Shown here piece after piece: positions 20,641 to 53,320 of a DNA stretch of 64,000 bases. Made by a program: the position numbers and the translations under genes. Under the pieces are notes generated by a model. It made no database searches. It was not told the origin of the DNA and was given only the letters and a program-made list of their open reading frames with translations. Numbering within the stretch: position 1 is the first letter of the stretch; each line of letters opens with the position of its first letter. The DNA is taken from contig NC_089432.1 in NCBI RefSeq assembly GCF_026210795.1, forward strand, positions 5,766,001 through 5,830,000. Direction: 5' to 3'. The stretch comes from Rhizophagus irregularis. Its lineage: Eukaryota.

Positions 20641-22255
20641 TAAGGATGGGTCCGCAAATGATTTTCAAATTCCGCAATATTGCGGAATTTAGTGTTGAAT
20701 TGCGGTTAGTAATCCGTAATTTCGCAATTCTGATTGGCTGCCCGGAACTGTGTTTTTTTGCAATCTTATATAATATATAAAAATGCCGGAACTATTAGTT
20801 TCAGTGGTTTTATTTTTATTTTTTATATAAGATATGCCGGAACTATTAGTTCCGGCGTTTTTTTTTAATTTTTATATAAAATATGCCGGAACTATTAGTT
20901 CGGCGTTTTTTTTGATTTTTTATATAAAGTATGCCGGAACTATTAGTTCCAGCGTTTTTTTTAATTTTTTATATAAAATATGCGAACTATTAGTTCCGGC
21001 GTTTTTTTTAATTTTTTATATAAAATATGCTGGAACTATTAGTTCCGGCGTTTTTTTTTAATTTTTTATATAAAATATGCCGGAACTATTAGTTCCGGCA
21101 TTTTTTTTGATTTTTTATATAAAGTATGCCGGAACTATTAGTTCCGGCGTTTTTTTGATTTTTTATATAAAATATGCCGGAACTATTAGTTCCGGCGTTT
21201 TTTGATTTTTTATATAAAATATGCGAGGAACAATTAGTTCCAGTGTTTTTTTTGATTTTTTATATAAAATATGCGGAACCATTAGTTCGGCATTTTTTTG
21301 ATTTTTTATATAAAATATGCCGGAACTATTAGTTCGGCATTTTTTTGATTTTTTTATATAAAATATGCCGGAACTATTAGTTCCGGCGTTTTTTTAAATT
21401 TTTTTATAAAATGTGCCGGAACTATTAGTTCCGACATTTTTTTTAAATTTTTTAATAAAATGTGCCGGAACTATTAGTTCTGGCATTTTTTTTTAATTTT
21501 TTAATTTTTTTATATAAAATATGCCGGAACTATTAGTTCCGGCATTTTTTTTAATTTTTTTTAATTTTTTTATATAAAATATGCCGGAACTATTAGTTCT
21601 GGCATTTTTTTTAATTTTTTATATATAATATGCCGGAACTATTAGTTCTGGCATTTTCTTTTTATTTTTTTATATAAAATATGCCGGAACTAATAGTTCC
21701 GGCGTTTTCTTTTTATTTTTCCTATATAAATATGCCAGAACTAATTGTTCCGGCATTTTCTTTTTGTTTTTTCTATATAAATATGCCGGAACTAATAGTT
21801 CCAGCGTTTTCTTTTTGTTTTTATAAATTTAATAACCATATCGGCCGGTTAATTTAACGGTGTTGATAAACCGTAATATAATCCGGCCGATCCAATTTTT
21901 TTTAAAAAAATAAATCATTTTTTTTTAATATTATATTAACGAAAAAATGATTTTTTTTTAAATATTTTTATTAATAACGAACTTATTTTTTAGACTAGTA
22001 AGTTTAAAAAAATAGTTAGTTATAAAAAAAAATATTTTTTTCCCCCCGCAATTTTTTCCGCAATTCCGCAATTTTCCGCAATTCCGCAATTAATTACGGA
22101 ATTGCGGATTATTTGCGAATTGCAGAAAAATTGCGGAATTGGGGATAATACATCGATTGCGGAATTGCGGATATGTGTACTTCAAAATCCGCAATGTTCC
22201 GCAATGTCGCAAATCGCAATTATTCCGCAATTGCCTATTTGCGGCACCATCTTTA
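20641..22255. mobile_element. Non-autonomous hAT-type DNA transposon (1.6 kb) with an internal palindromic minisatellite
   Basis: Perfect 8-bp TSD TTTGAGGC (20633-20640 and 22256-22263). TIRs taaggatgggtccgcaaat / reverse complement taaagatggtgccgcaaat. Subterminal ttccgcaa/ttgcggaa repeats. Confidence 0.9.
20775..21815. repeat. Tandem array of about 21 units of ~50 bp, each with the palindrome GCCGGAACTA-T-TAGTTCCGGC
   Basis: Unit tatataaaatatgccggaactattagttccggcgttttttttaattttt repeats directly, with variation in T-tract length. Confidence 0.93.
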
Positions 22256-22900
22256 TTTGAGGCTGTATGAGGATCTTATTTATTTCTAATAGAGGTTTTC
22301 AGAAAAATTTTAAATTTACTAGTAATTTTATCAGCGATCTTATTGGTTAATTAATCTAAAAAGGAAAAAAATCATAACAACTTAGTATAACATTCATATA
22401 GGCTGATTTGTTTACTTTGCATTAAAAAGAGTAATTGATTGATTTTCACAATTTTTGTTACTCAAAATTGTTTTGTAATACCTCTGATTGATGATCACTT
22501 GACTAAATAATAAGTTGAACAAAAATTTACATTTGCAAAACTTAAATTATTAAATGTAAAAGAGCTGTAAAAAAATCCATTTCGCTAATAAAAACGCATT
22601 TATTTAAATATATATAGAATTTTTAATATATATTATTAAAAAGTAAGTATATTTTAATAAAATATAAAGTAAAATAAAAATTTATATAGCCTTAGTAGCT
22701 ATAAATGTTTATAAAAGTATAATAAAAATATCATATAAAAGATGGTATCATAATAGATATTTTCAAACAATAAAAATAATTATTTTATGTTAGAGTTTGT
22801 ATTACCATCTTTAAATGCAAATATATCAAAATTCACTGATCAGTTTTCTATAATTTTAGGCTCATTGGAAAGCCCTTGTTCTGGATTTTATAGGCGAAAA

Positions 22901-25900
22901 TAGGGCTCTGATCGGTTTCGGTAATAACTAAACTGAACTGAACGGTTTCAGTTTCAGAGCGGTTTCGGTTTTCTAATTTACTGAACTGAATCCTTTGGTA
23001 AATTTACCGATCGATTTCGGTAATTGCGGTTTCAGTATCGGTTTTGCGATTTACCGAACTGAATTACCGAATTATCCGAATAAAGTTAGTACGGTAATTC
23101 AGTAATACAAATTGATTTTATCATTTAAATAATCTTTTTTTTTCAGACACTTCTAACACTTTTCTTATATTTTCTCTTCTATCTAATATAATTTTCCCTT
23201 CATTAATAATTTTTTAATATTTCAATTTAATATAATAATGGCGGATTCAGAAACTGACCAGGAAGAAATGGAGGAAGAAATAGACGAAGAAAATAATGGA
23301 GACGAGTCTGAAGTCAGTGAAGTGAAAGAAGACGAAGAAAATGATACTAGGCTGTCTAGTCGTAATACTAATAAGCGAAGTTGGGTTTGAGGACATTTCA
23401 AATACGAAGACTCATTAAAAAAAAGCCAAATGCGATTATTGTAAAAGTTTAATCTGTTGTAATAAAGGCAGCACTAACAAAATTTTTTTTTTAATTGTAT
23501 CTTTCTTCTATTTTTTCTATTTTGTAGGTTTCTTTCAGTTCTTGGGCGTTGGATATATAGGTGGGTTTCGAAGTGAAACTTCAAAACTTTTTTTTAAAAA
23601 AATATTTTAATTTTTTTTCTTCTATTTGTAGGTTTGGCCTTCAGTTCTTGGGTGTTGAATATACGGGTGAGTTACTACTGGACTGTCAAACCATTTTAAG
23701 AGTAAATATAATATAACAAAAAATCAAGAAAAAAACAAACTCACAATACATGAAGTTATTAACAATTCTGAGGCAATTGTAAGTGATCATTTGTGGTATT
23801 AATTATCAAATATGAATATTTTTTAATTTTTCATATATTTTTATTCAATTAGGTGTACAGTAAAGAAACTTTTAGAAAATTCCTTATTGAATGGATCGTA
23901 AAAAATGATCTTCCTTTCATGTGTGTAGAATCTGAAGATTTTAGGAGTATGATTCATCTTTTGCGCAAGGATGCATTTATACCCTCTGCAGATACAATCA
24001 AAAATGATATAATATCAATTTTTGATGAAAGTAAAAAAAAAATTAATTCTATTTTACAGGTATTATAATTGTATTTTGTTAATAATATTTTTATTTAAAT
24101 TCTACTAATTAATTCAATTTTTGTAGAATATATCTAAAAAAATATCCTTTACGATAGATGGCTGGACATCTTCAAACAATGTATCTTTTCTAGGCATAAC
24201 AGCCCATTTGATCACGAATGAATGGGAACTAAAGAGTTTCCTTCTAGATTTTATAAAACTCGATGGTCCTCACTCGGGTGCTAATATAAAGGAAGCTTTC
24301 TTAAAAAGCTTAAGTAGTTATAATATTGAATCAAAGGTTTGTTTTTCTATTTTTAAATTATGTACCTCACTATTTATAAAACTAAGTTAAAAAAAAATTT
24401 TTATATAGATCCTTGGTGTAACTACAGATAACGCTAGTAATAACATTACATTCCTCCAGGCTGTTGAAGACGAATTATCTAAAAAATTTATTCGATTTGA
24501 AAGTAAAGATAAACATGTGCGTTGTTTGGCCCATGTTATGAATTTAGCAGCGCAACAAGTCCTTACTATGCTCAAAGCCATAGAGGATAACGAACCATCA
24601 AATGAAAATAGTGGAGGTAGTCTTATATATAAAGTAAATTTTACTTTGCGTCTTTTCTATTCTTTAATTAATAATTAATTAATTTATTAATTATATTGTT
24701 TTCTTTAGCTTCGAACTCTTATTAAAAAGATAAAAGCATTCCCACAACAACAGGAAAAATTTAAAGCTCAATGCAAAGTTGCAAATATTTCTAATTTAAA
24801 TGTAATACTTGATGTGCGTACAAGATGGAACTCGACTCATGATATGCTTATGAGAGCGAAAACCCTTAAAGAAGTAAGTTTACTTATATTATTGTTTTAA
24901 TTTTATTTTAATTTATTAAAAAATAATTATAATTTTATTTTTCAGCCTATTAATACATTAAGCAATAGTGACCAAAACCTTCGTACTTTATCAATTAATG
25001 AAGAGAAATGGGTTCGTCTTAGTGAAATAGAAGAATTATTAAAGGTTTAATTTAATATTATATATATACATACATATTTTTATGATTTTAATAAAAATAT
25101 ATATATTTTTTTAGTGTTTTGCTAAGGCAACCAAACAGATTTGTGAGGAAACTTATCTGACGCTCTCCTATGCAATTCCAATATATAATATTTTATTAAA
25201 CAAATTGGAAGATTTTCGAGATACCCCAAATCGATTTGAGAATGAAAAGGTGAATTTCTTACTTTTATTAATATTTTTATATTAATTATAATTAATTTCT
25301 CTTTTTTAATAGGAAGCGGCAATCAATGCTATTAATAAGCTCAAAGAGTATTACAATAAAACTGATACAACTTTATATACAGTTTCATTGAGTAAGTTAT
25401 TGACTTATTGTACATTTTATAATATATATATTAATTTAGTTTATTATTATTTTGCTAATTTTTTTTAATATTTTTTATAATAGTTTTAGATCTACGTCTT
25501 AAATTAGAATATATGAAAGATAATGAGTGGGAGAAATGTTGGATCGATAAAACAAAGAATGTCGTATGAACTTACAAATTTTTTAATTTATTTGATTTAT
25601 GATTTTCTTCACCAGGCACATATTATATTAACAATTTGATAGGTATCCGAAATATATAATACGTTATATGCGCTAAAAGAGATTCAAAATACTAGGATTG
25701 AATGTAATTCCTCTGATGAAGATCTAGTTTCCCATATTTCAAAACGACAGCATATAGAATCTATAGGTAAATTGGATCGTTATTTAAAAGCTGATCATGC
25801 GCAACCTCTTACCAATGTTTTAAAGTGGTGGAAAGTAAGTTTTATTTGAAAGATTATTTATTTAATTAGTTATTTGTAAGTTGTAACATTTTTTTTTTTA

Positions 25901-26633: not shown

Positions 26634-26984
26634 AGTGAAAAATAACTTGCTAATTGAATCATTAGATCTGGAGATATTTACGTTTAAAGTTGAGGTATGA
26701 ACTTTTTAACATGCTTAAATGCAAATATCTTGGGATTCACTGATCCATTTTTTATAAATTTAGGCTCTTTGGAAAGCTTTTGATCTGGTCTATATGAACA
26801 AAAAAAGAGCTTGCCAATTGGATCGCTGGATTTGGAGATATTTACATTTAAGTTGAGATACAAATTTTTAACATATATAGTAAGTGCTAAGAATTATATT
26901 AATTTAAAAGAAATATTTACCAAATTATAGTATAATAACATTAAATAAAAAATTTTTTAATACTCATTTCCAATTTACTGTATA

Positions 26985-28275
26985 AGTAGGACAATCTTGG
27001 GGGTTCTGGGACAGCGGCTATCACATAGGTCTAACCATAATTTAGTGTACGCCGAACACCTACTTGCTTGTTTTCTGATATAATAACACTATACCTGTTT
27101 TTATACGACCACTAACTTGATTCCTGATATGTTATTACTTGATAGCTAAAAAAAACCCTCCAAGCGTTGTAGATAAGATTAACATCATATATTCCTAGGC
27201 ATTATTACCACACATGAATCCATTCCAGGGTATCATAATTTTATGCAATATCAGATTGCCTTTATAAGTGCCAAAGGTATGCCTTACAAAAAAAAATTTT
27301 ACTTAAAATATATTTAAATTATATTTAATTTTCTTTAAAATATACTTAATTTTCTTATTTTATACTTAAAATATACTGAAAATTGAATTTTCGCAAAATT
27401 TGAATTAAATTGTATTTAATATATACTTAAAATATATTTAATTTACACTTAAATTTTGCCTATTTCAGTATATTTTAAGAATATTTAAAATAAGAATATT
27501 TTAAGTATATTATTATGTACTTAAATTATACTTAAATAATACTTAATTTTTACCTATTTCAGTATATTTTAAGTATAAAATAAAATTTTAAATATATTTT
27601 AAGTATAAAATAAAATTTTAAGTTTATTTTAAGTATATTTTGGCAAAAATATTTTTTATAGGGATGAAGGACACGAAGTGTCTGTAATACCAATGGCACG
27701 ATTCAGCAATCCATTGTGGCATACTATTTTTATGATACTCTAAAAGGGATTCATTCGATGATTTAAGCCATTAAATGCTCTAACCAAAAATGTATAGCAG
27801 GAAGGCAACTAGACATATTGTAAAGCTTTCCTGCTATGCAAAAAAATCTGGGACAGTGAAGTCTAACCAAAAATCTGACCCAGGTCTAACCAAAAATGTA
27901 TAGCAGGAAGGCAACTAGATATATTTTAAAGCTTTTTCTCCTATACGAAAAAATCTGGGACAGCAAAGTCTAACCAAAATCCAACTCAGGTTTAACCAAA
28001 AAATGTATAGCAGGAAGGTAACTAGATATATTGTAAAGCTTTCCCTGAAATACGAAAAAATCTGATGGGACAACAGGTCTAACCAAAAGTCTAACCAAAA
28101 ATCCGTCCGAGGTCTAACCAAAAAATATACAGCAGGAAAACAACTAGACATATTGTAAAGCTTCCCCTGCAATACGAAAAATTCTGGGACAATGAAGTCT
28201 AACCAAAATTTAACCCTAATCATAAATTGCTCTGATTCTTTGTCGAAGCCTATTTTTATACCGATTTTGATAGTA
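26985..28275 (+). repeat. Left terminal inverted repeat (includes a 382-bp insertion), with internal ~120-bp tandem units rich in gtctaaccaaaa
   Basis: Reverse complement of ~39000-39919. Near-identical up to ...tctgattctttgtcgaag (28248). Confidence 0.92.
27282..27663. mobile_element. AT-rich MITE inserted in the left TIR only, with 3-bp TSD ATG
   Basis: The right TIR shows the empty site ggt-atg-aagg. The left has atg|ccttacaaaaaa...ttttttataggg|atg. Confidence 0.85.
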
Positions 28276-28346
28276 ATAAGATGGGAAACATTTTAGAATT
28301 TATTAATTGAAGAAAAAAATTTTTAGGTTATTAGTACACAACCAGT

Positions 28347-31300
28347 ATGGCAACAAGCAATCGAACTTGTGATAGATGTGGAAAGACTTTTGCAACTCCA
28401 CAAAAGCTTCGTGGGCATCAAAATAGAAAGTTTCTATGCAAGCCTATAGATAACCCTCAGGATCCCACACCTGAGATTGTACAATTGCAACCACAACCAG
28501 AGCAATTCCAGGATTAGAGCTCCGAATGTCAGGTCAGAGGTAGGGTTAATGATAAACCTGACCTGAAATTTTTTTCAGGTCAGGTCAGGTCAGGTTATAT
28601 CAGGTTGTCTGTTCATCCCGACCTGACCTGAAACCTGAAAATTTTCAGGACTATTTTTATTAAAGTATTGAAAAAAAACAGTACAAAACTTTTTTTTTTT
28701 AATATAATATTATGAAAAAAAAACGTTTTTGCAACGTTTTTTATTAAAATATCGAAAAAAAATATTGCAAAACATTTTTTTAAATATAACATTATGAAAA
28801 AAATGTTTTCGCAACGTTATTATTGAAATATCAAAAAAAAAAACGTTACGAAACATTTTTTTAATATAATATTATGAAAAAACGTTTTCGCAACATTTTT
28901 TCTCAAAATATTGCGATTCAACATTTTTATATTAAAATCATATAAAAAAGTGAATCGCAATACTGCAACTCACTTTTATTATATAAACTCAATATAAAAA
29001 AGTGAATCGCAATACTGCAACTCACTTTTATTATATAAACTCAATATAAAAAAGTGAATCGCAATACTGCAACTCACTTTTATTATATAGTAGAATCAAT
29101 AGTTTCAGGTCAACAGGTCAATCAGGTCAGGTCAATCTTCATACCTGACCTGAATTTTTTTTAAAAATCTCATACCTGACCTGAATTTCAGGTCAGGTCA
29201 GGTCAGGTTACCTGAATTTGGCTGACCTGTTCGGAGCTCTATCCAGGATCCCACACCTGAAATTGTACAATTGCAACCACAACCGGAGCAACTCCAGGAT
29301 CCCACACCTGAAGTTATCCCAGCTCATGCAGAGAAAACTCCTAATTTATCAATTGATGAACTAGCAAAATGGTTAGCAGGACCTGGTGATTACAATCAAT
29401 ATACTCCACGAAAAAGAAGAGTTACAAACAGATAATGAATGGTTTGCTTATATGCAAGGAGATTATAGAGGAAGATGGTGTGATATTCAATTTGTAAAAA
29501 GAGTTCATGATCCTGCACGTTCACATAAATCTCTAAAACATAAGACAGTATGGCAAGCTGATCTTAAACCAAATGTTAGAGATATACCATATTTTCCAAG
29601 TGTAATAGCTGATACCCGTCAGAAAATAACAGAAATTCTTGAGAGTGAACTTGAAAAAAAGGGCAAATCAAATCAGCTATCACTATATTGGCTACATATA
29701 CAGATAATAGTGGAACTTATAAGCAAGTTTATCATAGAGGAGTCATGCGTGTACTTCTTTTAAAGAATGATATAGATGATCATTTAACGAAATCAGCAAT
29801 AGATATCACGGATAAAATTGTCAAATTTATGAAAGGAGGGTCTGGTTGGAAAATTGTTAGTATAGATATATTAACTATTGAGACGTATACTTACCGCCGA
29901 GCAGAAGGAGGCTCATACATTCTTACACCTAAGGCACTTGCAAATAAGAAGTGCACTATCAATCCGGATAACAAAGATCTCATAGATCCGGACACAGGCT
30001 TGCCTTCTGAAAAATGTTTGCAAGGGGCTTTAGGTGCTTGCTTTGCATATAAAGATAGACATACACAAAAACTTGAGCGAATCTTTCGGGCAGAAAAATT
30101 TAAGCCATACTTGGAACAAGTCAATCTCAATGCAATTCCCATGCCCACTCCTGTTTGTCCACGCATATTTAGCAAGATTGAGGACCTCAATCCTGAGATC
30201 TCCATTAATGTATGGGAATGGGAGGAGAAAACTGGTATTCCAAAACCTGTTATTGCAAGTAAGAATTACAACCGTCAACATATCATTCACCTCATGGCCC
30301 TTACAGATATTACAAAATCAGATGAAGGAAAGTATGGTCAGAAGAATCACTTCCTTTGGATTAAGAATCCTGATGCTTTAATATACAAAGATACATCCCA
30401 CAAGGGAAAGAAGCATCTTTGCAATCGGTGCTTCCAAAGCTTTCCATCGTCTAAATCTTTAACTAATCATCAGGAATGGTGTTTTGGATTAGGTGAGTCA
30501 CCACAAAGAGTTGAGTTACCAGTTAAAGGTAAGAATGATTTTGAGGAGTTTAAGAATTTTAACCGAACAATGTATGCCCCATGTGTAATTATTGCAGGAC
30601 TTTGAGGCTGATAACAGAAAGTGTAATGAAAACTATGGTGGAAATATGCATAAGATTATGGAGCAAAAGGCTAACAGCTTCTGCTATATGGTCCACTGGA
30701 TTGAAACTGATGAGACATGGGGGCCATTCTTATACCGAGGACCAAATGCAACAGAAGAGTTTGTCAGCAGACTTGATAAAGAATTAAGAAGGATTAATGA
30801 TGTTTTAGAAGTAAAAGTAGAACGTATTGTAACAGAGGAAGCTAAAAAGGAATTCACTGAAGCAGTTAGTTGTTGGATATGTAATGGGAATTTCAATCAG
30901 GACGTGCAAGACAAAAAAGTTTGGGATCACTGCCACATCACAGGTAAGTTTCGTGGGGCTGCTCATAATGCATGCAATCTTAAGCTTCAAATCGAAGCAT
31001 GGAAGACTCCAATTCCTGTAGTATTTATAACTTCCGTGGCTATGACTCCCATTTAGTTTGTGAATCTGTTGGACGATCAATTGGAGCACATCAAATCAAA
31101 GTTATTGCAGAGACATTTGAACGTTACAAATCCATGAAAGTAGGGCAATTCAAGTACATTGATAGCATGCAGTTCATGGCTTCCAGTCTTGCAAACCTTG
31201 CAAAGAATTTAGGGACAGATAAACCCCTTACAAAGCAACACTTCAACAACTTCTCGTCTGAACATATTGACTTAATCACACGTAAGGGGGTTTATCCTTA

Positions 31301-33198
31301 TGAATATATTGATTCACATGATCGTTTTAAGGAGACAGAACTCCCATCTATTCATGACTTTCATAGTACTCTTGGAGGAAAGATCACTCAGAATAATTAT
31401 AAACATGCACAAAAAGTTTGGAAGGAATTTGGCTGCAAAAACTTGGGCGAGTATCATGACCTTTACCTTAAGACTGATGTTCTTCTCCTAGCAGATGTCT
31501 GGACAAAATTTAGACAAACAGCGATGCATCATTATGGACTTGACCTAAGTCATTATGTCTCTGCTCCTGCACTTTCTTGGGATGGCATGCTTAAGATGAC
31601 TGGAGTTAAAATAGAGCTATTCACTGACATGACCATGCATGATTTTACTGAAAAGGCTAAATGTGGAGGAATAGCTATGGCAGGACACCGTTTCTTAAAA
31701 GCCAATAACCCTAAGATAGGTGACTCCTTTAATCCCTCTAAACCTACTACCTGGATTTCCTATGTAGATGCAAACAATCTGTATGGATGGGCTATGAGCC
31801 AGTATTTACCTATTGGTAATTACAGATGGGAAGCATCTCCAGAATATTTCAAACAGAATCCAGATAAGCAGAAGCAGATACTTAATGTAATTCTTAATAC
31901 AAAACCAGATGCTACCCGTGGTTACTTCCTAAATATCAAAGCGCACTTCCCTCTTAAGACTCATGATTATCTACAAGATTTACCTCCTGCAGTTGATAGT
32001 ATAGCTGTAAAAAAGGATAGGTTAAGTCCATATATAACCAAACTTGTTGATAACTTAGATGGAGGGCGATTCCCTGAAACAGAGAAGTTAGTTCCACATC
32101 TTGGTAAACATGAAGATTATGTCATACATTACCAAGAGCTCCAGTATTACATTAAGTTAGGCATGGTTGTAGATGAGATTACACAAGTCCTATCATTTGA
32201 TCAGGATAACTGGTTAGCTCCTTATATTGCAAAAAATACAAATTTACGTCAACAATCCAAGAATTCATTTGAGAAAGACTTCTTTAAACTCATGAATAAC
32301 TCAGTCTATGGCAAGACTATGGAGAATGTACGTAAGTATCAGGATGTCAAGCTTATGAGAATGATCAATGAAAATGATGAAAAGAAATTCCTTAAGAAAG
32401 TTCGCAAGCCCTCCTTCAAGTATGCTCGTCAACTTGGCAACACACTTGTAGGAGCACATATGGGTAAGGCTAGTGTTATTCTCAATAAACCTATCATTGT
32501 CAGTGCATCTGTCCTTGGTCTCAGTAAACTCTTAATGTACCGCTTCTGGTATGGTTTTGTCAAGGAGAAGTATGGAGATAAGACACAACTTGGATATATG
32601 GATACTGACTCCTTTATCTACCATGTCGAGACAGAAGATATTTACAAGGATATGGCAGAGCGTCCAGATCTCTTTGACCTTAATGATACCAAGACTATCG
32701 GGCTTTTCAAGGATGAGACTCCTGGAAATGTAATTACTGAATCCTACCACATCCGTGCAAAATCCTACCACTATGTCTTGGCAGACAAGTCTACAAAGTC
32801 CAAACATAAAGGAGTAAGCAAGAAGGGTATGAGTGATATGGCTAAGGACACATATTTCCCATCTTTAGGTGGAACTTTATTAGATGATACAGTAGAAAAA
32901 GATGAAATCTTCGATCCTATGACTCAAGTATATCGGGACTGTCTGTTTGAAAATGGTGTCTTCTATGCTAAGAATGTGGGAATGCGTACAAAAAATCATG
33001 TAATATCACTAATCGAACTTGGAGAAGAAGGCATTATCTCCAATCGATACAAAACGCTGGATTTGGTCAGATGGTATATCCTCCTTACCATTCGGACACT
33101 GGCGTATTCAAGTATATAAGAAACTTCTTGAGCGTGGTATAAGTCATGAGGCAGCAGAAAAAATAGCTATAGGGACCAGATTACCAGAGAAATATTAG
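28347..33198 (+). pseudogene. Protein-primed family B DNA polymerase (Polinton type) with N-terminal C2H2 finger and endonuclease VII-like insert; interrupted by a MITE and several frameshifts
   Basis: MATSNRTCDRCGKTF..LRGH; ExoI VIIA-DFEA; CWIC...DHCHITGKFRGAAHNACNL; ExoII NFRGYDSHL; RKGVYPYEY; ExoIII YLKTDVLLL; motif A YVDANNLYGWAM; motif B KLMNNSVYGKT; motif C YMDTDSF; KHKGV. Confidence 0.95.
28515..29241. mobile_element. hAT-type MITE (727 bp) inserted in the 5' part of pPolB
   Basis: Perfect 12-bp TIR TAGAGCTCCGAA and perfect 8-bp TSD TCCAGGAT (28507-28514, 29242-29249). Subterminal tcaggtcagg repeats and an internal ~50-bp triple repeat at ~28940-29090. Confidence 0.93.
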
Positions 33199-33270
33199 AA
33201 TGATATAGAATAGTTTAGTGATATTTAGGCATATATTAATAATAAATTATATTTTTTCTCAGTAGTTAAA

Positions 33271-33540
33271 ATGGAAGACGATCCAATCTATAATATACAT
33301 AGTAAAGAATATATCGATGACCTAGTGCATGTTACAATTCGGAGAGGTCTCTTTAAAGATGTAGAGGATGCAAAAAAAAGTATAAAGGCATTAGCTAAAA
33401 TGGTCATAAGTTCTAAGACTAGTATTGATGCATTTATGAAATGCCCTGTACCAAACATTCCAAATGCCTTTTATGACTTAGTAGAGGCATTTTATTATTC
33501 AATACTAAGAGAAAGACAATCATTAGCACATGACATCTAA
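33271..33540 (+). CDS. Element ORF of unknown function (89 aa)
   Basis: Intact ATG-to-stop ORF just downstream of pPolB, inside the TIRs. Confidence 0.55.
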   Translation: MEDDPIYNIHSKEYIDDLVHVTIRRGLFKDVEDAKKSIKALAKMVISSKTSIDAFMKCPVPNIPNAFYDLVEAFYYSILRERQSLAHDI

Positions 33541-33632
33541 CAGATTTCTGGGAGGTGTCATATGATAAGATATTCTATGGAATTCTTCAGAATTCTTTGG
33601 AATTCCAAATTTTTTTTTCGTAATAAGAACTA

Positions 33633-34069
33633 ATGTCTTTCAACCAGGTATACACTGAGCTACTAGTTATATTACCAGCTTCTGTAATACATGAGGCATG
33701 GATTCGTCTCACAACAAGGAAGCGTGAAGTCACTATCTGCCTGATGCCAGTGGAGTAAATTCCATGGTAGAGTTATTTTTGAAACATGAAGTAGAAAGAT
33801 ACCAGAAAAAATTAGCACGTCAGAGACTAACTGTTAAACAGACATATATGCCAAGAAACAGAATGATACAAGACATGATTAGTGAAGAGGTTTCCATACT
33901 TCAGAAGCACTTGCTTGAATATAATAAGGTTACTTTTGGCCGATTCATGCAGAACCTTACTAAAGAACATGAGAAATTGATCAAGACAAATCATCAGATA
34001 CGACATGAAATTGATACCATGAAGAAGCAAGTACGAGAAATAGAAAAAAAACTTGCTTCCATGTCGTAG
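33633..34069 (+). CDS. Element ORF, coiled-coil rich, probably frameshifted in its 5' part
   Basis: ATG at 33633 (MSFNQVYTEL..). The 33764-34069 frame has a heptad-rich C-terminus (EHEKLIKTNHQIRHEIDTMKKQVREIEKKL). Confidence 0.5.
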
Positions 34070-34074
34070 TTCCC

Positions 34075-35245
34075 ATTATTCATCAAGAAATAGACGAATG
34101 GGTACTGTTGCTTTACTCAAATTTTGTGTGGACTACGCATGGGATTTTTTTACTGTGCATAGACTTTGCATGGACTTTGCATGGGAAATTTTAACTGCAC
34201 ATGGGCTTTGCATGGGCTTTGCATGGGACTTTTTTACTGCACATGGATTTTTTCGTAAAAAATGTTGTCTAAGATTAGAAGGATATGGGAATTCCTTCCC
34301 ACAATGCTGATAGGTACGATCAGCTAGTTTTTTTTTTATAGGTGGCTGGCTATCTACTGCAAAAACATTACGTTGTGCCTTATGTACAGAGAGAGGAATT
34401 GAGACAACCTGTCCATTTACATTTGCTTTGAACTCACCCTTTACTACAGGTTCCCAACCTGCACGATACTGCCACTATGTACCAAGTATTAGCAATGATT
34501 TGTCCTTACCATTTCGATCCTTCTCGGTAGGTATAACAGGAGAATTCGTCTGATATAGTGACTGTATTTGTACCTTCACCGATAGTTATGGGAATTTCAT
34601 TGATAGTGCCAAGAGTTTTGGTTGATCCAGCTACACCATTAAGTGCATGTATATTCTTTCGATCTATTTTGAGACCTAGATGCTTAGCTACATTCTCAGA
34701 GATTACTGAAGAGTCAGGACCCTGTATCGATCATAGCATAGGGTATGCATACATTTTTGATTTTACAGGAAATGGTCACTACATCATTGGGATCATCTAA
34801 CTGGAGAAAGTTGATTTAACTGGGTAACTGGCCAGTATAGGTTTTCTGCTGATAGGCACGTATTGATGGTTCAGTGTTTTGTCTTCTTTCTGTTCTACTT
34901 CAGATGGTACATCTGCAGGAGGAGTTGGTAATAGTGGAGTTGCTGTATTTACAGCATGAGCTAGAAGGAGATAAAATGTCTTGCATATTTGCTGAAAGAA
35001 CATCCCAGAGTTTCTTTCTTTCACTAACTGGATAGTCACTAACAAAATGGTTTAAAAGCGGGTCTTTCAGATTCTCATATGCTTGATTGGTCTAAGCATT
35101 AATCTGTAAGAGGATTTCTTTAGGACATTGTGCTGCTAGTGAAGCAATTATTATGACTTCAGTGCTGCATGAAAGACTTCATCAGTTTTCTTGAGAATAG
35201 GTTCTCTTTTAGATTTGGAAGTACGGGATTTTTTTCCCTTTGGTT
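34075..35245 (-). pseudogene. Retropepsin-like aspartic protease region plus C-terminal zinc-finger-like motif, downstream of the Gag-like ORF
   Basis: Reconstructed across indels: VTISCKIKNVCIPYAMIDTG.DSSVISENVAKHLGLKIDR..ALNGVAGSTKTLGTINEIPITIG...LLILGT*WQYRAG. DTG is at ~34720-34728. Followed by RTYQHCGKEFPYPSNLRQHFLRKNPC. Confidence 0.82.
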
Positions 35246-35246
35246 T

Positions 35247-37317
35247 TTACTGAAACTCCACGTCGACGAGTTTTTTTTTTACACTAAAGCAATTCTGAGG
35301 TTCATCCTCCTCCTCTTCTTCTTCAGTTAACTCTTCCTCAGTTTCTTCATCAGTTTCCTCATCACTTTCAGATTCTTCATAGTCAACTATGTGAGTATTG
35401 TTAACTTTCTTAGTACGTCTACTCCGTGAACACTTGTTTTTGGAATGACCTGTTCTACCACAGTTTGAGCAATGACGTTTAGAAGAAGATTTGGTTGTCT
35501 TTGTCACCTTTTTAACCTGGCCAGTTCCAAAGTGATCTTTTCTTAGATGTTGTGTTTGTCCACCTAACTTTCTGGTAAGATCACTCTCAATGAAAGTATG
35601 TATTGCTACAGGATTTGTTATGTCACCAGTATGGCCAAGACGTACTGCTATATCTGCAAGCTTTTCTAATGCAGTTCTATTCTGTGGTTGTTCTACTATA
35701 GTGGTTGGATTTTTTTCGCCCTCCACTTTCATACCATTTATTACGTAACTCATTAAAGAAAGCATCAAGATCAGCAGGAGCAGCAATTCTAACTCTCATT
35801 TCTAAAACATCAGGCAAATGATTATATAGATAAGGTAAAATTTCAGCATATACTTGTCCTTATGCTAATGATCGAATCCTTTTTGCATATGTATCTGGTG
35901 TATCTATAGGAGAAAATGATTCATTCATGAGTGCTATTATAGCACCTTGATTTGTTCCAACCATCACATCTCTATATTTTCCTTGCAGCCAGTTTAGAAA
36001 CTCTGGTTCTGTATTAATAGCAGCATTGGCATTATATGGATTATTTGCTGGAACAGGAATAAATCTACCAGACATTTTATTTTTCATAACACTACACCTC
36101 ATAGCAGCATTAAAACCAGCAAAAGCTAGTGGACGAGCCATCTCATTGACAGCTCTAAGCTTTTGATAATAAGAGTCTGGCAGCTCTTGTCCATCATAAA
36201 ATGGTAACTGTGCAAGACCTGGTGATATAGTATGCATGACATTTTGTATTGTAGCCATGTTTGGAGGATTGTTTTGTAACGCTAATATTTGTTGTTGTAA
36301 ATTTAAAATATTTTGGGCCTGTGCTTGTACTTGGGTCTGTGAAATCCTATATTGTCTTTGCCAGTTTTGTGCCTGACGTATACAACCTGCATGCCTTCTT
36401 CTCCAACGTTCTGTATCAGCATTATAACGTAACATCAGCCTGTGTGCATTCCTTCTATGCTCAGCTATCTGATTCTGTTGGTTTACCAGCTGATTCTCGG
36501 GCTTGGTTTGCCGGTTGTCGCATCTTTACGTCTATTCAGAAAACGTATACCTAGATTGGCTATTTGTATTCCTGCAATACGTGCTTGATTCTGTTGTGCA
36601 ACAGTTTTCCAGTGTCTACGAGCATTTGTCTCATATGTAAAATCATCACGTACTCTTATTAAGTCTTTGATTAAGAGCATTTGTACGATCTAAAGATTCT
36701 CCAAGTAATGTCTGCAATCCTTCTATTTGATTTAGTTGGTCTACACCAATTTCTTGCATTAGAGCAGCTTGACGAATAATTTCATCAAGACTTTGAGTGG
36801 TAGCATTAAAGACATCATCTATGTCTTGTGGAATTAGAATCCTATTCCGATCAAAAAATAGTCAAATTTCAGACACACAATCTGCAACTGCCCGTCGGCG
36901 GTCTAGTATTCTTAGAATAGGATTGAATAATTCATTATCTTCATCCATTTCTATCTTTCCTTTACATAAAAATAATTCTTGAATGCATTTTTTGAGTTTA
37001 TCTACTGTGTCTTCAAGCTGAATAATATGTTCATCCTGGGCAACAAGTGCTTCTTCCTTTAACTCTAAGTGATCTCGATACTTTCCAAGTTCAACTAAAG
37101 TGGACTGACACTCTGCTTTTAACTGATCGATCTCATCCTCACGTGAAACAAGATTTTTTTCAAGATAGAAGATATATCGTTCACATGCCTCTATCTCCTT
37201 TGTGAGTTTACGGATTTTCTCCTTATTGGAAATATTATTTGTTTCCTCTAATATCAGCTCTTTACGTAAAGCAAAGTTGCTATTTAGCAGATCAAGATAT
37301 GCCGATTCAATACCCAT
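35247..37317 (-). pseudogene. Gag-like protein: N-terminal coiled coil, capsid-like region, CCHC zinc knuckle, acidic tract (broken by stops and indels)
   Basis: ORFs 36862-37320, 36483-36680, 35860-36435 and 35247-35786 are collinear. LPFYDGQELPDSYYQKL...EFLNWLQGKY...ESFSPIDTPDTYAKRIRSL is MHR-like. CSNCGRTGHSKNKC (CX2CX4HX4C) is at 35430-35471. Confidence 0.72.
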
Positions 37318-38414
37318 CAATTCCTATTATTAAAATAGATTCTGATGAAGCACGAAATGTAGAGGTGACTTCGACTTTATGCAGAATATTTTATCAACCA
37401 TCTGGATATCAGAGGACTGCCAAAAAATTGTATGAGACATCACAAAATGCTGGATATGATTTCACCTTAGATGAAGTGCAGGATTGGCTTGGAAAGACAG
37501 GCAGTACATCAAGTCCACAAACCTCGTCCCCGATTTATCCTTTGTGTAAGTTTTAGTTCTATACAAGTCTGTTAATGAAGTTCATCGAAGCTGACATTTT
37601 GTATATGCCATATGACGAGGTTGGACATGTGACTTATCTTTTCTGTCTCAATATAGTTGATATAGCATCGAGGTATAAAGAAAGTGTCCCTATAGGTTCA
37701 ACCAGTGTTAAAGATCGACAGGGAATCCTAACTTCTCATACTATTGCTCGAGGCTTTTGAAAAGGTATATGATGATACGAACATGTCCGCTCAACTTGCT
37801 TGAAAATTATTGATTACAGATAGGGGTTCGAGTTTAAAGGTGAGTGTGAAAAGTAGATGACTTCCCATGGTGTAAAGATTCAGAAGGCCAAGTCTAAGCG
37901 TACTGTTGGCATTGTGGAGCGATATAACCGTACCTGGGTTGAAAAACTATTTCCCTCTCAAGATGCATCTGATTTACTAACTTTAGGTAAAACGAGATCT
38001 CAGTACGGGTAAAAAACTTACCTATTGCTGTAGAAAGTATAAATAACTCAGTGACCCAACAACTTGGTATATCTCCTGCTGTAGCTATAAAAAAATCACG
38101 AGTGTCTTTCAGATCTTCTTATCCTCGTGATGGACCTGTTGGGTATGAAGAGGAGAAACTACCACCTGATATAAGTGTAAGGTACTTACTTGAACCAAAT
38201 GATCTGAAAGGTGGAAGACGTCGAGCAGGAGATATGAATTGGTCATGCAAGATTTATCATAATACGTATGCCTTTAACTTAGAAAAATCAACCAGTTTTG
38301 TACTGGCTTATTGATGATGATGGTAAAGAATCAGAGAGATCCTTTGTGAGGGAAGAACTTTTGGTTATACCAGATGATACAGAACTTCCACCACAATGGG
38401 TACTTATGAATTAA
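37299..38414 (+). pseudogene. Polinton-type retroviral-like (rve, DDE) integrase, frameshifted
   Basis: IFYQPSGYQRTAKKLY..EVQDWL..QVHKPRP, EADILYMPYD, IVDIASRYKESVPI, ITDRG-EFKG, GIVERYNRT, DMNWS and SFVREELLVIPDDTELPP. Confidence 0.9.
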
Positions 38415-38452
38415 GATAGTCTTCTACCTCATCATCTGCTTGTATGCGGAAG

Positions 38453-38772
38453 TTAGTCTTTCGTCAATTCATAGTATAACCTGTATAGCTTATTAATAGC
38501 AGACAAAAGTTTTGGCTCTCTGCTATACCAGGTCTTATAATTTTCCAAGATTTGCTGATACTTTGTCTCATTAGGTAGAATAGATTGTGCTGTTTCGAAA
38601 CAAAATTTTCTGGTTCTTCTCAGGCGCAATTTGATTATCCTTTGTTGTAAGCATAACATGAATTTACCATCCTTTGGTTTCTTGTAAAGGATGCCTGCTT
38701 TAATTACAGCAATTAGAGCTGATTCAATTTCACGGAATGTTGGCTTAGCTGGTATAGCTTGGGTAGACATCA
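38453..38772 (-). CDS. Element ORF of unknown function (~106 aa)
   Basis: MSTQAIPAKPTFREIESALIAVIKAGILYKKPKDGKFM..., convergent with the integrase inside the TIRs. Confidence 0.5.
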
Positions 38773-38999
38773 TTTTTTATATCATGTAAAGTTTTTTTTA
38801 ATTTAACTTATTTATACTTAATAAAAATGATTGGAGAATATACTTGTGAATATTTACATAACGCAGAAAGCGCGTGGTCGTCGCCTGTGTGAGCCAGAAG
38901 GTTGTCGCATTTATTGGAAGACAAAATCACGCTTTCCTTGTGCTGTATGTGGTAAACCTACAGGTTCATCTATAGTCGACGTCAATCTCATATTGGGAG

Positions 39000-39919
39000 T
39001 TATTATCGAAATCGGTATGAAAATGGAGAACTTCGACAAAGAATCAGAGCAATTTATGATTAGGGTTAAATTTTGGTTAGACTTCATTGTCCCAGAATTT
39101 TTCGTATTGCAGGACAAGCTTTACAATATGTCTAGTTGTTTTCCTGCTGTATATTTTTTGGTTAGACCTCGGACGGATTTTTGGTTAGACTTTTGGTTAG
39201 ACCTGTTGTCCCAGATTTTTTCGTATTTCAGGGAAAGCTTTACAATATATCTAGTTACCTTCCTGCTATACATTTTTTGGTTAGCAGGGTTGGATTTTGG
39301 ATTTGAGACTTAGCTGTCCCAGATTTTTTCGTATAGGAGAAAAAGCTTTAAAACGTATATAGTTGCTTATGCTATACATTTTTGGTTAGACTGGGCAGAT
39401 TTTTGGTTAGAGGCAAAACACTGTCCCAGATTTTTTCGCATAGCAGGGTGCTTTACAATATGTCTAGTTGCCTTCCTGCTATACATTTTTGGTTGAGCAT
39501 TTAATGGCTTAAATCATCGAATTTAATCCTTTTAGAAAGATCATAAAAATAGTATAGCCGCCACAATGATTGCAATGATCACGCATTGGTATTACAGACA
39601 CTTCGTGTCCTTCATACCTTTGGCACTTATAAAGGCAATCTGATATAGCATAAAATTATGATATCCTGGAATGGATTCATGCGTAATAATGCCTAGGTAA
39701 TATACGATGTTAATCTTATCTACAACAAGCTTTGGAGAGTTCTTTTAAAGTATCAGTAATATATATCGGGATGGAATCAAGTTAGGTGGCCTCAGGGATA
39801 AAAAAACAGGTATAGTGTTATCATATCAGAAAACAAGGCTAGGTGGTCTGGGGGTACACTAAATTATGGTTAGACCTATGTGATAGCCGCTGTCCCAAAA
39901 CCCCCAAGATTGTCCTACT
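39000..39919 (-). repeat. Right terminal inverted repeat of the Polinton-like element
   Basis: Reverse complement of the left TIR, without the 27282-27663 insertion. Confidence 0.92.
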
Positions 39920-41157
39920 GTATATTATATAGTATTTTGTATAATAAAAATGTAATAAAATTAATATTCTAATTAAAGGTAGACAAATCAGCCTATATGT
40001 TCTTTTTTAGGTATAATTTATCTATATATAGTAAGATCTTTAAAAATAAATTTTACCTTAGATTTCCAGTAACCTATCTTATAAGTAAACGGGATTCTGC
40101 TATATGTAGCAATATATAAACAAGAATCTTTCCATTCTTTTTTATATTAATAGCCTGCTGGAAAGCCAAATAGTTCATATTTATATTATTAAAAAACATT
40201 TTTTATATATAAAATTATAAAAATAAAATTATTTTTTTCACAAAAAAATTGTTATAATGATCATCAAAAAAAATTCCATTTACTAATTGATTTATTTACT
40301 ATTAATATTTAGTAATTATCAAATATTCAAATTATTTAGATATTCAATCTATTTATTAATCTAAATTTATTCAAATAATAAATTTCAATTTTATAAAATT
40401 TTATTTTTTAAATTTAAAAATTTTTAATTATCACAATTTATTGACAAATATAGATTTTTTTTTTATATATTTTTATATTTTTTTACAAACTTTTCCTATT
40501 ATCTTTTACATTAATATTTTTTATTATTTGAATTATTTGAATATATTTATTACATTTTTTTGAGATTTTAGAGGAAGTAAATCAAGATGGAATCCCAAAT
40601 TACGACTTTTTTCTTTTTAAATACCAGCCATCAAACTTTGTTTTACAAAATGCATAACTTTTAATTTATAATTATATTAATTGGTTAATTTACTGCATTT
40701 TTTAGTAAAAATTTTAAATGTTAAAAAGTATTAAGTCCAAAATATAATGTGAATATTTATATAATATATACATATAAATTTTTTACTAAGATACAATGTA
40801 TATAACTTTTGCTATATTTTTATAGCTCTTGTTCTAATTTATTAAAATATATAAGCATTTAAATTAATATTTCTTCAAGTTATATAGCCATTTAAAAATG
40901 GGATTTAAAACTTAAAGTAATTAGGGTGATTGAACCATGAGTGGTTGAGTTATCCACTGTAAGTGCATGCAAATTGTTTATATTGTTTGAATACCAAAAA
41001 ATGACCCTGAGCGTATTATGGAAACAGGGGGTAGTAAGTGCAAGTAGTATCACACTATGGAAAATCCCGGGTCATGATTAATGCACGTAATGGATCAAAG
41101 ATTCATATTTTAAACCTCTGGAACAGTATTCCGGAAAAATAAATATCTAATATTATA

Positions 41158-42831
41158 ATGACTGATAAAACACCAGTTGGACCACAAATAGGCAATAGTG
41201 CTGATCATTTTTTTCAGTCTGATAGTGATCTGGTAACCCAAGAGCGTCGAACCGCAAAAAGAGAAAATAAAGCTGGTGATCCAATAGAGTGTACTTCTAA
41301 AGTCTTATGCTTGGTACTGTCCGAAAAAGCTGAAGAATCAGAGTATGCTTATATTGGAGAATCAGGTTTCATTGCGAAAAGGATAAACTTATTGGTATGA
41401 TAAGAAACATATTATATAAAACTGCTGACAACAATGCTAATCCACTTTTTATTAGACTGGAAAAACTACTAAAGTTTTTAAGGGACATACTGGACCCGTT
41501 ACTTGTCTTGGTTTATGGTATAAAGATAATGATGAATATCTTATAACAGGATCATGGGATAAGACTCTCATCAAATGGAATACAAAGGTGAATAAATTGA
41601 TTTTTATAAGAACATTATTTAGAATTCCAATCTGTTATCTCGGATAGTTACATTTTGGTAATTACATTTTAGTAATTACATTTTAATATTTATATTTATA
41701 TAAATAATTTAAGAAAACATTTTTTTGAGATATCCTATAATAAATACCAAAATTTAAATGAAGAATCAGATGACGGATTGATTAACTAATTTAGTTTTAT
41801 GATCAATTATAGACTAAAGAGTCCATTCATACTTTTGTTGCGCATACTGATTTTGTAAAATCATTAGCAATTTCTCATTTTGCATCAATTCTTTATTCGG
41901 GTTCCTCAGATAATTTTATTTATTCATGGAATCTTGTAACCGGCGAACAATTACAAAAATTCAAAGGACATTCTCGTGGTATAGAAGATCTTGCTCTCGA
42001 TGAAACAGAAACTTTTTTATTTTCTGCTTCATCAGATGGGTATATTAGAAAATGGAATGCAAATACAGGTGAATGTTCACATGTATTTAAAGGACATTTA
42101 ACAAGTGTATATGCGTTGAAAATATTTAATGAAGAAATGTGGACGGGTAAGTATTCAGGCTTTTTATGTTACAATAGAATTTTTATTTAAGCTAATATTA
42201 TAATTATAATGGTACCTTAGCATCTGCTGATAAAACAGTAAAAAGATGGGATTTAGAAGTAATATGCTTTATAAATATCGTTTCCTATTTTATCATCTAA
42301 TAAATGTTAAAGGGTAATTTATTATTTAGACTGGTGAACCAGATACAACTTTAGCACATCCAGATTTCGTTAAATGTCTTGTGGTTATCGGGCCATATGT
42401 TATCACTGGATCACGTGACGAGAATATTAGAATTTTTGAGATCGGGGTTTGTATGAAAGTTTCCTACATTTTAATATATATACATATATTAATCAATTCT
42501 TTTATTAGAATGGAGATATGATCAATAAATTTGAAGGTCATTTTGATGAAGTTGCCTGCATGGCTGTCAGAGGAATTACATTATATACAGGTTCTTTGGA
42601 TTGTACTATAAGAAAATGGTCCATTGCAGGTATTATCCTTTGGTAACTGAAGATATATTTTTTAATCATATATTAAAATCTATTTTAATATTTAATTTTT
42701 AAGAAGAAGATATTCGTACTAAAACAGAAAATAAAAAGTCCTTACAAAAATCAATTCCAATTAAAAAAGAAGTCAACTCTTCATTGTTAACTGAAGAGGA
42801 AGAACGTGAATTGGCTGAATTAATGGAATGA
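41158..42831 (+). CDS. WD40-repeat protein (multi-exon)
   Basis: FKGHTGPVTCL, ITGSWDKTLIKWN, AHTDFVKSL, KGHSRGIEDL, SASSDGYIRKWN, HPDFVKCL, GHFDEVACM and C-terminal LTEEEERELAELME*. Confidence 0.88.
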
Positions 42832-53069: not shown

Positions 53070-53320
53070 TATATAGTGATATTTTATTCTGTAGTTATAT
53101 TTTAGTCAGTTTTTTTTACTAAAAGCATTAAAAGCAAGATTGATTTATAAATTGATTTCAACTTTTTATTAAAAAAAAACCTAACTTAAATTCAAAAATA
53201 TTGATTATAATACCGTATAAATTAAATTGGCACGTGACTTATAAAGATGAGATTTTCCTAGTAAATTTTTTTTTTGATAAATTTCTTATTGTTTCGAAAA
53301 AAAAACAAACTTTAGAAAAT

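What the first reader, a model, noticed from the sequence alone, without database searches (positions are those of the whole stretch)
26985..39919. Polinton-like element whose structural module appears to be retroviral-type Gag plus aspartic protease instead of a jelly-roll capsid
Seen in sequence: ~0.9-kb TIRs, AGT...ACT termini, a GTATA duplication, a complete set of pPolB motifs, a Polinton-style DDE integrase, and a ~3.2-kb opposite-strand unit ordered coiled coil, capsid-like region, CCHC knuckle, DTG protease. Established: canonical Polintons/Mavericks pair pPolB and INT with a double-jelly-roll major capsid, a penton, an A32-like packaging ATPase and an adenain cysteine protease. Gag/retropepsin modules belong to RT-encoding retroelements. 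Here nearly all internal sequence is accounted for; the leftover ORFs are under ~150 aa. I see no Walker A motif, no capsid-sized spare ORF, and no RT, RNase H or LTRs. Inference: a chimeric self-synthesising DNA element that replicates with pPolB, integrates with INT and may be packaged in a protease-matured Gag particle. I do not know of this architecture being described, although Polintons themselves are known from fungi.
Basis: partly seen in the sequence, partly recalled or inferred. Interest (0 to 1): 0.95.

Follow-up and report, generated by a model that had tools for sequence, protein, structure and literature searches.

The report
Fungal Polinton carrying retroviral-type Gag capsid
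A DNA-copying jumping element in a root-symbiotic fungus carries retrovirus-type capsid and protease genes, but no reverse transcriptase, where its relatives carry an ordinary DNA-virus capsid, so it likely moves its own DNA in a retrovirus-like particle, which nobody has tested.

Summary
This is a 12,935-bp Rhizophagus-type Polinton with ~0.92-kb TIRs, a 5-bp TSD, pPolB and a DDE integrase. The opposite-strand unit is a real Gag: its predicted capsid (pLDDT 91) has the two-lobed retroviral CA fold, and the top 28 structural hits are all CA proteins.

It is not a nested retrotransposon. An intact relative shows the same order with nothing between the genes (L012). The integrase sits head-to-head with Gag in 7 of 7 informative loci (6 families). 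dN/dS is 0.06-0.37, and no LTR or RT is linked.

New here: Gag, protease and a zinc finger lie in successive -1 frames, joined at A8-13 runs (12 of 14 and 7 of 9 loci).

Prior art lowers novelty. The element is probably Polinton-1_GI (11,954 bp, listed as capsid-less). A 2021 figure legend labels Gag/retropepsin on some PolB element (figure unseen). Particle formation and DNA packaging are inferred. Linkage to pPolB is shown for only two close families.

The parts
26980..26984 (.). Left target-site duplication GTATA
   Evidence: empty-site joint
26985..28276 (+). Left TIR (~0.92 kb plus a nested insertion), with ~106-nt subterminal repeats
27279..27663 (.). 385-nt AT-rich nested insertion (MITE-like), absent from the right TIR and from other copies
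   Evidence: joint skipping 385 nt in 2 of 4 runs
28347..33198 (+). Protein-primed family B DNA polymerase gene: N-terminal C2HC finger, endonuclease VII domain, exonuclease and polymerase motifs. Broken here by one insertion and several frameshifts; one 1,413-codon frame in L012
28515..29241 (.). 727-nt non-autonomous insertion with 12-nt TIRs and an 8-bp TSD (hAT-like; label recalled)
33271..33540 (+). Small ORF (89 aa), no family hit, absent from L012: variable cargo slot
33764..34069 (+). Small coiled-coil-like ORF (101 aa), absent from L012: variable cargo slot
34133..34337 (-). Third-frame zinc-finger ORF plus short repeats; finger of the same type as the PolB N-terminal finger; damaged here
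34328..34337 (-). A10 run at the protease / zinc-finger junction (predicted -1 shift site 2)
34331..35280 (-). Protease frame: basic linker, helical region, retropepsin-type aspartic protease (IDTGS at 34717-34731); frameshifted here
35271..35280 (-). A10 run at the Gag / protease junction (predicted -1 shift site 1)
35247..37317 (-). Gag: long coiled coil (about 36259-37317), two-lobed CA (about 35720-36258), small helical domain, CCHC knuckle (35430-35471), acidic tail; frameshifted here, 697-codon frame in L012
37299..38414 (+). rve-type DDE integrase, head-to-head with Gag; frameshifted here
38453..38770 (-). Conserved small ORF (orfZ), function unassigned; also beside the integrase in L001, L008 and L019
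38827..39040 (+). Conserved Cys-rich ~70-aa ORF (orfW), frameshifted here, intact in L001 and L019
39000..39919 (-). Right TIR, 920 nt
39920..39924 (.). Right target-site duplication GTATA

Best explanation
This is a Polinton of an arbuscular mycorrhizal fungus that has no jelly-roll capsid genes and instead stably carries a retrovirus-type Gag, protease and zinc finger, and it likely packages its own DNA in an intracellular Gag particle. Shown: TIRs, TSD, pPolB, integrase, CA fold, CCHC knuckle, DTG protease, conserved gene order, purifying selection, and successive -1 frames at A-runs. Inferred from the family: pPolB copies the excised linear element from its TIRs, and the integrase inserts the copy. 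Inferred from the layout: slippage on the A-runs (ribosomal -1 shift or transcriptional stutter) would give much Gag, less Gag-PR and little Gag-PR-ZnF, as in gag-pro-pol. Most speculative: with no packaging ATPase, the shell would co-assemble around the nucleic acid. The CCHC knuckle would bind a displaced single strand and the rare zinc-finger product would select TIR DNA. The protease would then mature the shell, and with no envelope gene the particle would move between nuclei of the shared hyphal cytoplasm. Separate odds: stable architecture 0.95, particles form 0.75, particles carry the element's DNA about 0.5.
For: Fold: AF2 model of L012 CA, pLDDT 90.7. VIA-align ranks 1-28 of 48,161 chains are all retroviral, retrotransposon or derived CA proteins: PEG10 Z 11.0, rmsd 2.2, 81 aa; copia Z 9.7, rmsd 8.1, 152 aa; RSV Z 7.9, rmsd 5.0, 154 aa; MLV Z 7.8, rmsd 4.0, 164 aa. 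The first unrelated row has Z 5.5. Foldseek on a second model: 38 of 39 shown rows are CA, though E >= 0.26. Atlas features point to Retrotrans_gag at 0.93. Order: L012 has INT | Gag | PR | ZnF | PolB, with Gag, PR, ZnF and PolB intact, the integrase open up to the contig edge, and nothing between. The integrase is head-to-head with Gag in 7 of 7 loci with upstream sequence, 6 families at <90% DNA identity. Contigs bridge PolB to CA (X3, 32959-36586) and Gag to integrase (X3, 37133-37519). Selection: dN/dS 0.15-0.37 for CA and 0.06-0.31 for protease, 9 of 10 pairs each, 1 saturated. Frames: junction 1 is -1 in 12 of 14 loci and all 14 have an A8-13 run; junction 2 is -1 in 7 of 9. No RT domain: 0 of 38 long protease-bearing proteins by precomputed Pfam, 0 of 11 rescanned, 0 of 48 scanned out of 150 Gag representatives. 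No LTR-like repeats in 5 of 5 regions. Precedent for Polinton PolB paired with a foreign capsid: bidnaviruses (PMC4061559, abstract).
Against: No particle, RNA or extrachromosomal DNA was observed, and no RNA run was laid. pPolB linkage is shown only for this family and L012/L023 (86-88% DNA identity). L004, whose family has the integrase link, has three other ORFs and no PolB in about 3.3 kb past the zinc finger. Only 3 loci extend more than 700 nt past the protease. Integrase and CA identities do not correlate (rho 0.31, p 0.38, 10 pairs, unequal lengths), so modules may shuffle. No conserved stimulatory structure follows the A-runs (z below -2 in 1 of 13). NCBI models bridge junction 1 by skipping the stop-containing stretch, apparently as an intron, so splicing is an alternative. 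L015 and L006 (junction 1) and L007 and L010 (junction 2) do not show -1. A second R. irregularis Polinton has an ATPase (P_Gi1.2), so helper packaging is possible. CA shells are known to assemble on RNA (established, recalled).
Confidence: 0.55

Rival explanations
1. The Gag unit forms particles or condensates that hold the element's RNA or proteins, or chaperone replication, while the DNA transposes unpackaged as a capsid-less Polinton.
For: CCHC knuckles and CA shells normally take RNA (recalled). No ATPase or portal motif is present. Capsid-less Polintons are on record: nine elements lacked MCP, protease and ATPase (PMC4028283, passage). All sequence evidence fits this reading equally well.
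Against: A kept protease and a stepped Gag:PR:ZnF layout fit a maturing particle. The third-frame finger resembles the PolB N-terminal finger (46% over 28 aa, E 1e-4), a DNA-binding type. Without RT, packaged RNA has no route back to DNA in cis.
Confidence: 0.25
2. Gag-PR is cargo that benefits the element or the host, for example a dominant-negative restriction factor against LTR retrotransposons, and plays no part in the element's own movement.
For: Domesticated or restriction-type CA proteins are among the closest folds (PEG10, Drt2, Arc, PNMA2). The slot past the zinc finger holds variable cargo, including an F-box gene in L004.
Against: It holds a fixed head-to-head position against the integrase in 6 families. 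The protease and two shift sites are conserved under purifying selection. It sits in every element examined that lacks jelly-roll genes.
Confidence: 0.1
3. The element, or its Gag-INT part, travels through RNA in its own Gag particle and borrows reverse transcriptase from host LTR retrotransposons; PolB is secondary.
For: Gag, protease and an rve integrase are the retroelement set minus RT. L004 shows no PolB nearby. Gypsy elements expanded recently in R. irregularis (PMC8647823, passage).
Against: The ends are long TIRs, not LTRs. The integrase is on the opposite strand to Gag. PolB is intact in L012 and forms a Glomeromycotina clade nearest to Polinton PolB.
Confidence: 0.06
4. The Gag-PR unit is a decayed LTR retrotransposon that once jumped into a Polinton and lost its RT.
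For: This copy is frameshifted throughout, and it carries two other nested insertions.
Against: Intact frames and the same position occur in relatives at 49-89% protein identity. There are no LTRs, dN/dS is far below 1, and no RT fusion was found.
Confidence: 0.03

Closest known systems
Polinton-1_GI / P_Gi1.1 of Rhizophagus (Glomus) intraradices (PMC4028283 Table S1, read whole)
   Same: Host genus; size (11,954 bp against 11,815 bp here after removing two nested insertions); no MCP, penton, ATPase or cysteine protease. Probably the same family.
   Different: The table and the passages seen treat it as lacking a capsid (also PMC7805220); none names Gag.
Unnamed PolB element labelled 'Matrix/Capsid/NC/Pro' in Starrett et al. 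2021 Fig. 5 (PMC8502044; legend and section 3.4 read, figure not held)
   Same: PolB element with genes similar to retroviral Gag and retropepsin; the paper names Rhizophagus PolB. I put about 0.75 on its being this family.
   Different: A legend label only: section 3.4 gives no discussion, distribution, fold test, frameshift layout or mechanism.
Canonical Polintons / adintoviruses (Polintoviricetes)
   Same: TIRs, short TSD, pPolB (40-43% to animal Polinton and adintovirus PolB), rve integrase.
   Different: No double-jelly-roll MCP, penton, A32 ATPase or adenain; a Gag-PR-ZnF unit lies between PolB and integrase.
LTR retrotransposons and retroviruses (Ortervirales; Ty3/gypsy, Ty1/copia)
   Same: Two-lobed CA fold, CCHC knuckle, DTG protease, successive -1 frames like gag-pro-pol (last comparison recalled).
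   Different: No RT, RNase H or LTRs; integrase on the opposite strand; the third frame is a zinc finger, not Pol; the replicase is pPolB.
Bidnaviridae (PMC4061559, abstract)
   Same: Polinton-derived PolB and TIRs combined with a capsid from an unrelated virus group.
   Different: Parvovirus jelly-roll capsid, not Gag; the abstract lists no integrase or protease.

Membership tests
Polinton/Maverick element | Protein-primed family B DNA polymerase | tested here: met
   Motifs located; relatives carry PF03175 and the nearest outside hits are Polinton/adintovirus PolB. PF03175 did not hit this copy or L012 directly.
Polinton/Maverick element | Retrovirus-like (rve) DDE integrase | tested here: met
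   rve E 1.5e-10 (L019) and 6e-6 (L001); D, D, E located
Polinton/Maverick element | Long TIRs with AG...CT ends and a 5-6-bp TSD (definition recalled) | tested here: met
Polintovirus/adintovirus | Double-jelly-roll major capsid protein and penton | tested here: not met
   All element sequence is assigned; leftover ORFs are at most 160 codons; L012 has no gene between integrase and PolB other than Gag-PR-ZnF. orfZ and orfW were not folded but are too short.
Polintovirus/adintovirus | A32/FtsK packaging ATPase | tested here: not met
   No Walker A in six frames; no spare ORF
Polintovirus/adintovirus | Adenain cysteine protease | tested here: not met
   No such Pfam hit among 23 frames; the only protease is aspartic
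LTR retrotransposon / Ortervirales | Gag with CA fold and CCHC nucleocapsid | tested here: met
LTR retrotransposon / Ortervirales | Retropepsin aspartic protease | tested here: met
   PF13650 above its cut-off in P0030, P0005 and L012
LTR retrotransposon / Ortervirales | Reverse transcriptase and RNase H | tested here: not met
   None in the element or in L012; 0 of 38 long protease-bearing proteins
LTR retrotransposon / Ortervirales | Long terminal direct repeats | tested here: not met
   None in 5 of 5 regions
LTR retrotransposon / Ortervirales | Primer-binding site and polypurine tract | not tested
   No LTR to anchor the search
LTR retrotransposon / Ortervirales | Frameshift-set Gag:enzyme ratio | tested here: inconclusive
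   The layout is conserved, but no stimulator was found and splicing is not excluded
LTR retrotransposon / Ortervirales | Particle formation | not testable with these tools
   Needs expression or purification
Polinton-1_GI family | Host, size and absence of morphogenesis genes | tested here: met
Polinton-1_GI family | Sequence identity to the Repbase entry | not testable with these tools
   Sequence not held; original paper not held

The most novel reading that the evidence does not exclude
A Glomeromycotina-wide class of DNA-only mobile elements or intracellular viruses replicates by protein priming and packages its DNA in a protease-matured retroviral-type Gag shell, with no reverse transcription at any step. 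A double -1 shift would set the Gag : protease : DNA-binding finger ratio. It would bridge Polintons and reverse-transcribing viruses and explain why fungal Polintons looked capsid-less.
Probability: 0.45. Interest if true: 0.93.

Novelty: new variant of a known kind. Interest (0 to 1): 0.74.

Why it matters
To my knowledge (recalled), CA-fold capsids occur only in reverse-transcribing elements and in host genes derived from them. A stable pairing with a protein-primed DNA polymerase breaks that link. It offers an answer to the noted lack of an MCP in the Glomus Polinton, and it makes a concrete question testable: can a Gag shell package a DNA replicon? Mavericks are expanded in Glomerales and among the most recently active elements in R. 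irregularis, so the mechanism bears on genome change in a major plant symbiont. A DNA-selecting Gag particle would also be of interest as a delivery scaffold. The score is held down because the element is probably long catalogued, the Gag label probably already appears in one figure, and packaging is untested.

Tried and rejected
No whole genome is held for this window, so copies with separate TSDs could not be listed. Indirect sign only: near-identical NCBI Gag models lie on 17 different contig lengths.

Locus scans that found nothing: single-protein scan of metagenomes and three scans of viral contigs.

Sequence searches of the PDB did not detect the capsid. Pfam Retrotrans_gag hit only one relative (P0351, E 4e-4). 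A weak RT_RNaseH hit (E 0.054) on the Gag coiled coil of L012 was rejected as chance. PHROGs gave only endonuclease VII, a weak transposase hit and one weak unknown-function hit.

Contig depth was roughly level over PolB, Gag and integrase in 3 of 4 runs but is not used, since it is no copy number. Run X1 may be the window's own source, so it is not independent. Only 15 of 53 joints were shown, and none of the 15 skips the Gag unit.

In-frame read-through at junction 1, suggested by this copy, was rejected: relatives are -1 and this copy has a further indel. No co-divergence of integrase and CA was found (one search stopped on a script error). No frameshift stimulator was found.

Not obtained because the machines were busy: the viral fold library, a Foldseek run on the second model, and an Atlas look-up of orfZ. 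No complex prediction was run.

Literature: ten searches found no paper that discusses a Gag-bearing Polinton; only the Starrett legend names it. Kapitonov and Jurka 2006 was not held, Pritham 2007 was not seen, and Repbase was not seen. The Starrett supplement was cut before Table S1, and it may name the element. Look-ups of earlier scan findings gave nothing relevant.


Full report
Boundaries. The element runs from 26985 to 39919 (12,935 bp), begins AGT, ends ACT, and has GTATA on both sides. The TIRs match in two blocks at 86% and 90%. The right TIR is 920 nt; the left carries an extra 385 nt that other copies lack. One contig of run X1 joins the two flanks and skips 12,940 nt, the element plus one TSD. 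The flanks look repetitive, so this may be another copy of the target repeat, but it still fixes the ends and the 5-bp duplication. A 727-nt insertion with an 8-bp TSD interrupts the 5' part of PolB. Without the two insertions the element is 11,815 bp.

Host and core genes. The nearest proteins (94-100% identical) carry Rhizophagus irregularis names. PolB has exonuclease and polymerase motifs and an endonuclease VII domain. Its 21 closest relatives used in the tree, named ones from Rhizophagus, Glomus, Paraglomus, Entrophospora, Cetraspora and Scutellospora, form one clade (FastTree support 0.87, midpoint root; 39 of 120 listed proteins used). The next hits are animal Polinton and adintovirus polymerases at 40-43%. 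Intact integrases of relatives hit rve. No Walker A occurs in any frame, and the leftover ORFs are short. This copy is frameshifted in all its large genes. The X1 contig over most of PolB differs by 1 base and 4 gaps, as many gaps as there are frameshifts in that stretch, so some breaks may be assembly errors or private to this copy (inference).

The Gag unit is real. Sequence searches barely see the capsid, but language-model features point to Retrotrans_gag. An AlphaFold model of the 182-residue region of L012, from a 43-sequence alignment, has pLDDT 90.7 and two helical lobes. Against 48,161 PDB representatives, ranks 1-28 are all CA proteins or their derivatives. These include whole two-lobe alignments to RSV (Z 7.9, 154 residues, rmsd 5.0) and MLV (Z 7.8, 164, 4.0), and C-lobe matches to PEG10 (Z 11.0, 81, 2.2). 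The Z values are moderate for a helical protein; the weight comes from the uniform identity of the hits. An earlier model gave 38 CA rows among the 39 shown, at weak E-values. A CCHC knuckle and a DTG protease follow.

It is a fixed part of the element. A profile scan of metagenomes gave 23 loci in 15 clusters. L012 (8,481 nt, 86-88% DNA identity) reads integrase (cut by the contig end), Gag, protease, zinc finger, PolB, with open frames and no other gene between them. L023, of the same cluster, also has PolB after the finger. The integrase lies head-to-head with Gag in 7 of 7 loci that reach upstream of Gag (6 clusters; the L015 match is short, E 1e-5). orfZ and orfW follow it in L001 and L019. 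Contigs of run X3 (a different organism label from X1) bridge PolB to CA and Gag to integrase. dN/dS among integrase-linked families is 0.15-0.37 for CA, and 0.06-0.31 for the protease among protease-bearing loci; dS is near saturation, so these are rough. No LTR-like repeat was found in 5 regions. No RT domain appears on 38 long protease-bearing proteins or on 48 of 150 Gag representatives scanned. Against: L004 has three other ORFs and no PolB within about 3.3 kb after the finger. Most loci end too soon to test PolB linkage, and integrase and CA divergences do not correlate.

Expression layout. Gag ends shortly after a run of A's, and the protease frame opens across that run in the -1 frame in 12 of 14 loci that span the junction. 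The exceptions are L015 and the decayed L006, and all 14 have an A8-13 run. The protease ends on a second A-run, and a zinc-finger frame follows at -1 in 7 of 9 loci (exceptions L007 and L010). The window keeps both A10 runs. No conserved downstream structure was found, so transcriptional stutter is as plausible as a classical -1 shift. NCBI models skip the first junction, apparently as an intron, and splicing is not excluded. The third-frame finger is of the same C2HC type as the finger at the PolB N-terminus.

Mechanism. The most likely reading (0.55) is that Gag has replaced the jelly-roll morphogenesis module. pPolB would copy the excised element and the integrase would reinsert it, as proposed for Polintons (recalled). 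With no ATPase, a shell would have to co-assemble on the nucleic acid. The knuckle could take a displaced single strand, and the rare finger-bearing product could select TIR DNA. The protease would mature the particle, and without an envelope it would stay inside the multinucleate hypha. All of these steps are inferred. Rivals: Gag handles RNA or proteins only (0.25); Gag is cargo such as a restriction factor (0.10); RT is borrowed in trans (0.06); a nested dead retrotransposon (0.03).

Comparison with what is known. It meets the PolB-plus-integrase definition of a Polinton and fails the virion-gene tests of polintoviruses. It meets the Gag and protease tests of LTR elements and fails RT and LTRs. 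Krupovic et al. 2014 Table S1 lists Polinton-1_GI from Rhizophagus at 11,954 bp with no MCP, penton, ATPase or protease, and a second element, P_Gi1.2, with an ATPase (table read whole). Bellas and Sommaruga 2021 note that no MCP has been found for the Glomus Polinton (passages). Starrett et al. 2021 Fig. [quoted passage not shown] I could not see which element is meant, and the supplement was cut. AMF transposon papers mention Mavericks without gene content in the passages seen. Passages or term counts only were seen for PMC11296320, PMC5751038, PMC3671162, PMC4405056, PMC11071296 and bioRxiv 2026.06.19.733378. Ten searches found no discussion of this architecture (listed under Tried and rejected); subscription papers and Repbase were not covered.

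Verdict. The feature is real and conserved. It is a new variant of a known kind, probably labelled once before and not analysed in anything I could read. The fold test, the conservation across families and the double -1 layout are what this work adds. If DNA packaging is shown, it would be a categorically new replicator. Interest 0.74.

Noticed in passing
window 28515-29241: 727-nt insertion with 12-nt TIRs and an 8-bp TSD; contigs pile up here in all four runs, suggesting an abundant non-autonomous family.
   Followed up: partly
window 27279-27663: 385-nt AT-rich insertion in the left TIR, with internal repeats.
   Followed up: partly
window 30829-30984: Recombination endonuclease VII domain inside PolB (E 2.8e-7), shared with many Polinton polymerases.
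   Followed up: no
L001:1858-1861; L003:760-763; window 37299-37317: The likely start codons of integrase and Gag abut or overlap head-to-head (worked out from ORF coordinates), leaving no intergenic promoter space.
   Followed up: no
L004:2409-5527: After the zinc finger come a 301-aa coiled-coil ORF, a 269-aa ORF with no family hit and an F-box ORF, but no PolB.
   Followed up: partly
L001:4382, L003:3230, L004:1617, L007:1513, L018:1379: A third A9-10 run lies inside the protease frame in five loci; its meaning is unknown.
   Followed up: no
L019:350-602: 47-nt tandem repeats beyond orfW, resembling the subterminal TIR repeats of a distant family.
   Followed up: no
window 20780-21827: Tandem array of ~49-nt units with a short palindromic core.
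   Followed up: no
window 6017-6400: 48-nt tandem repeat, 96-99% alike in its core, inside an acidic ORF.
   Followed up: no
window 22802-22907 and 26706-26811: Two copies of a 106-nt repeat (76%), one just left of the element; the flanks look like a host repeat.
   Followed up: no
window 454-843, 41813-42190, 48365-50081, 52031-52627, 53156-55932, 59143-59814: Exon-like ORFs of ordinary host genes: NIPA-like transporter, WD40 protein, gamma-tubulin complex subunit, ribosomal protein L4, Nop14-like, Sen2-like (labels recalled from the translations, not tested).
   Followed up: no
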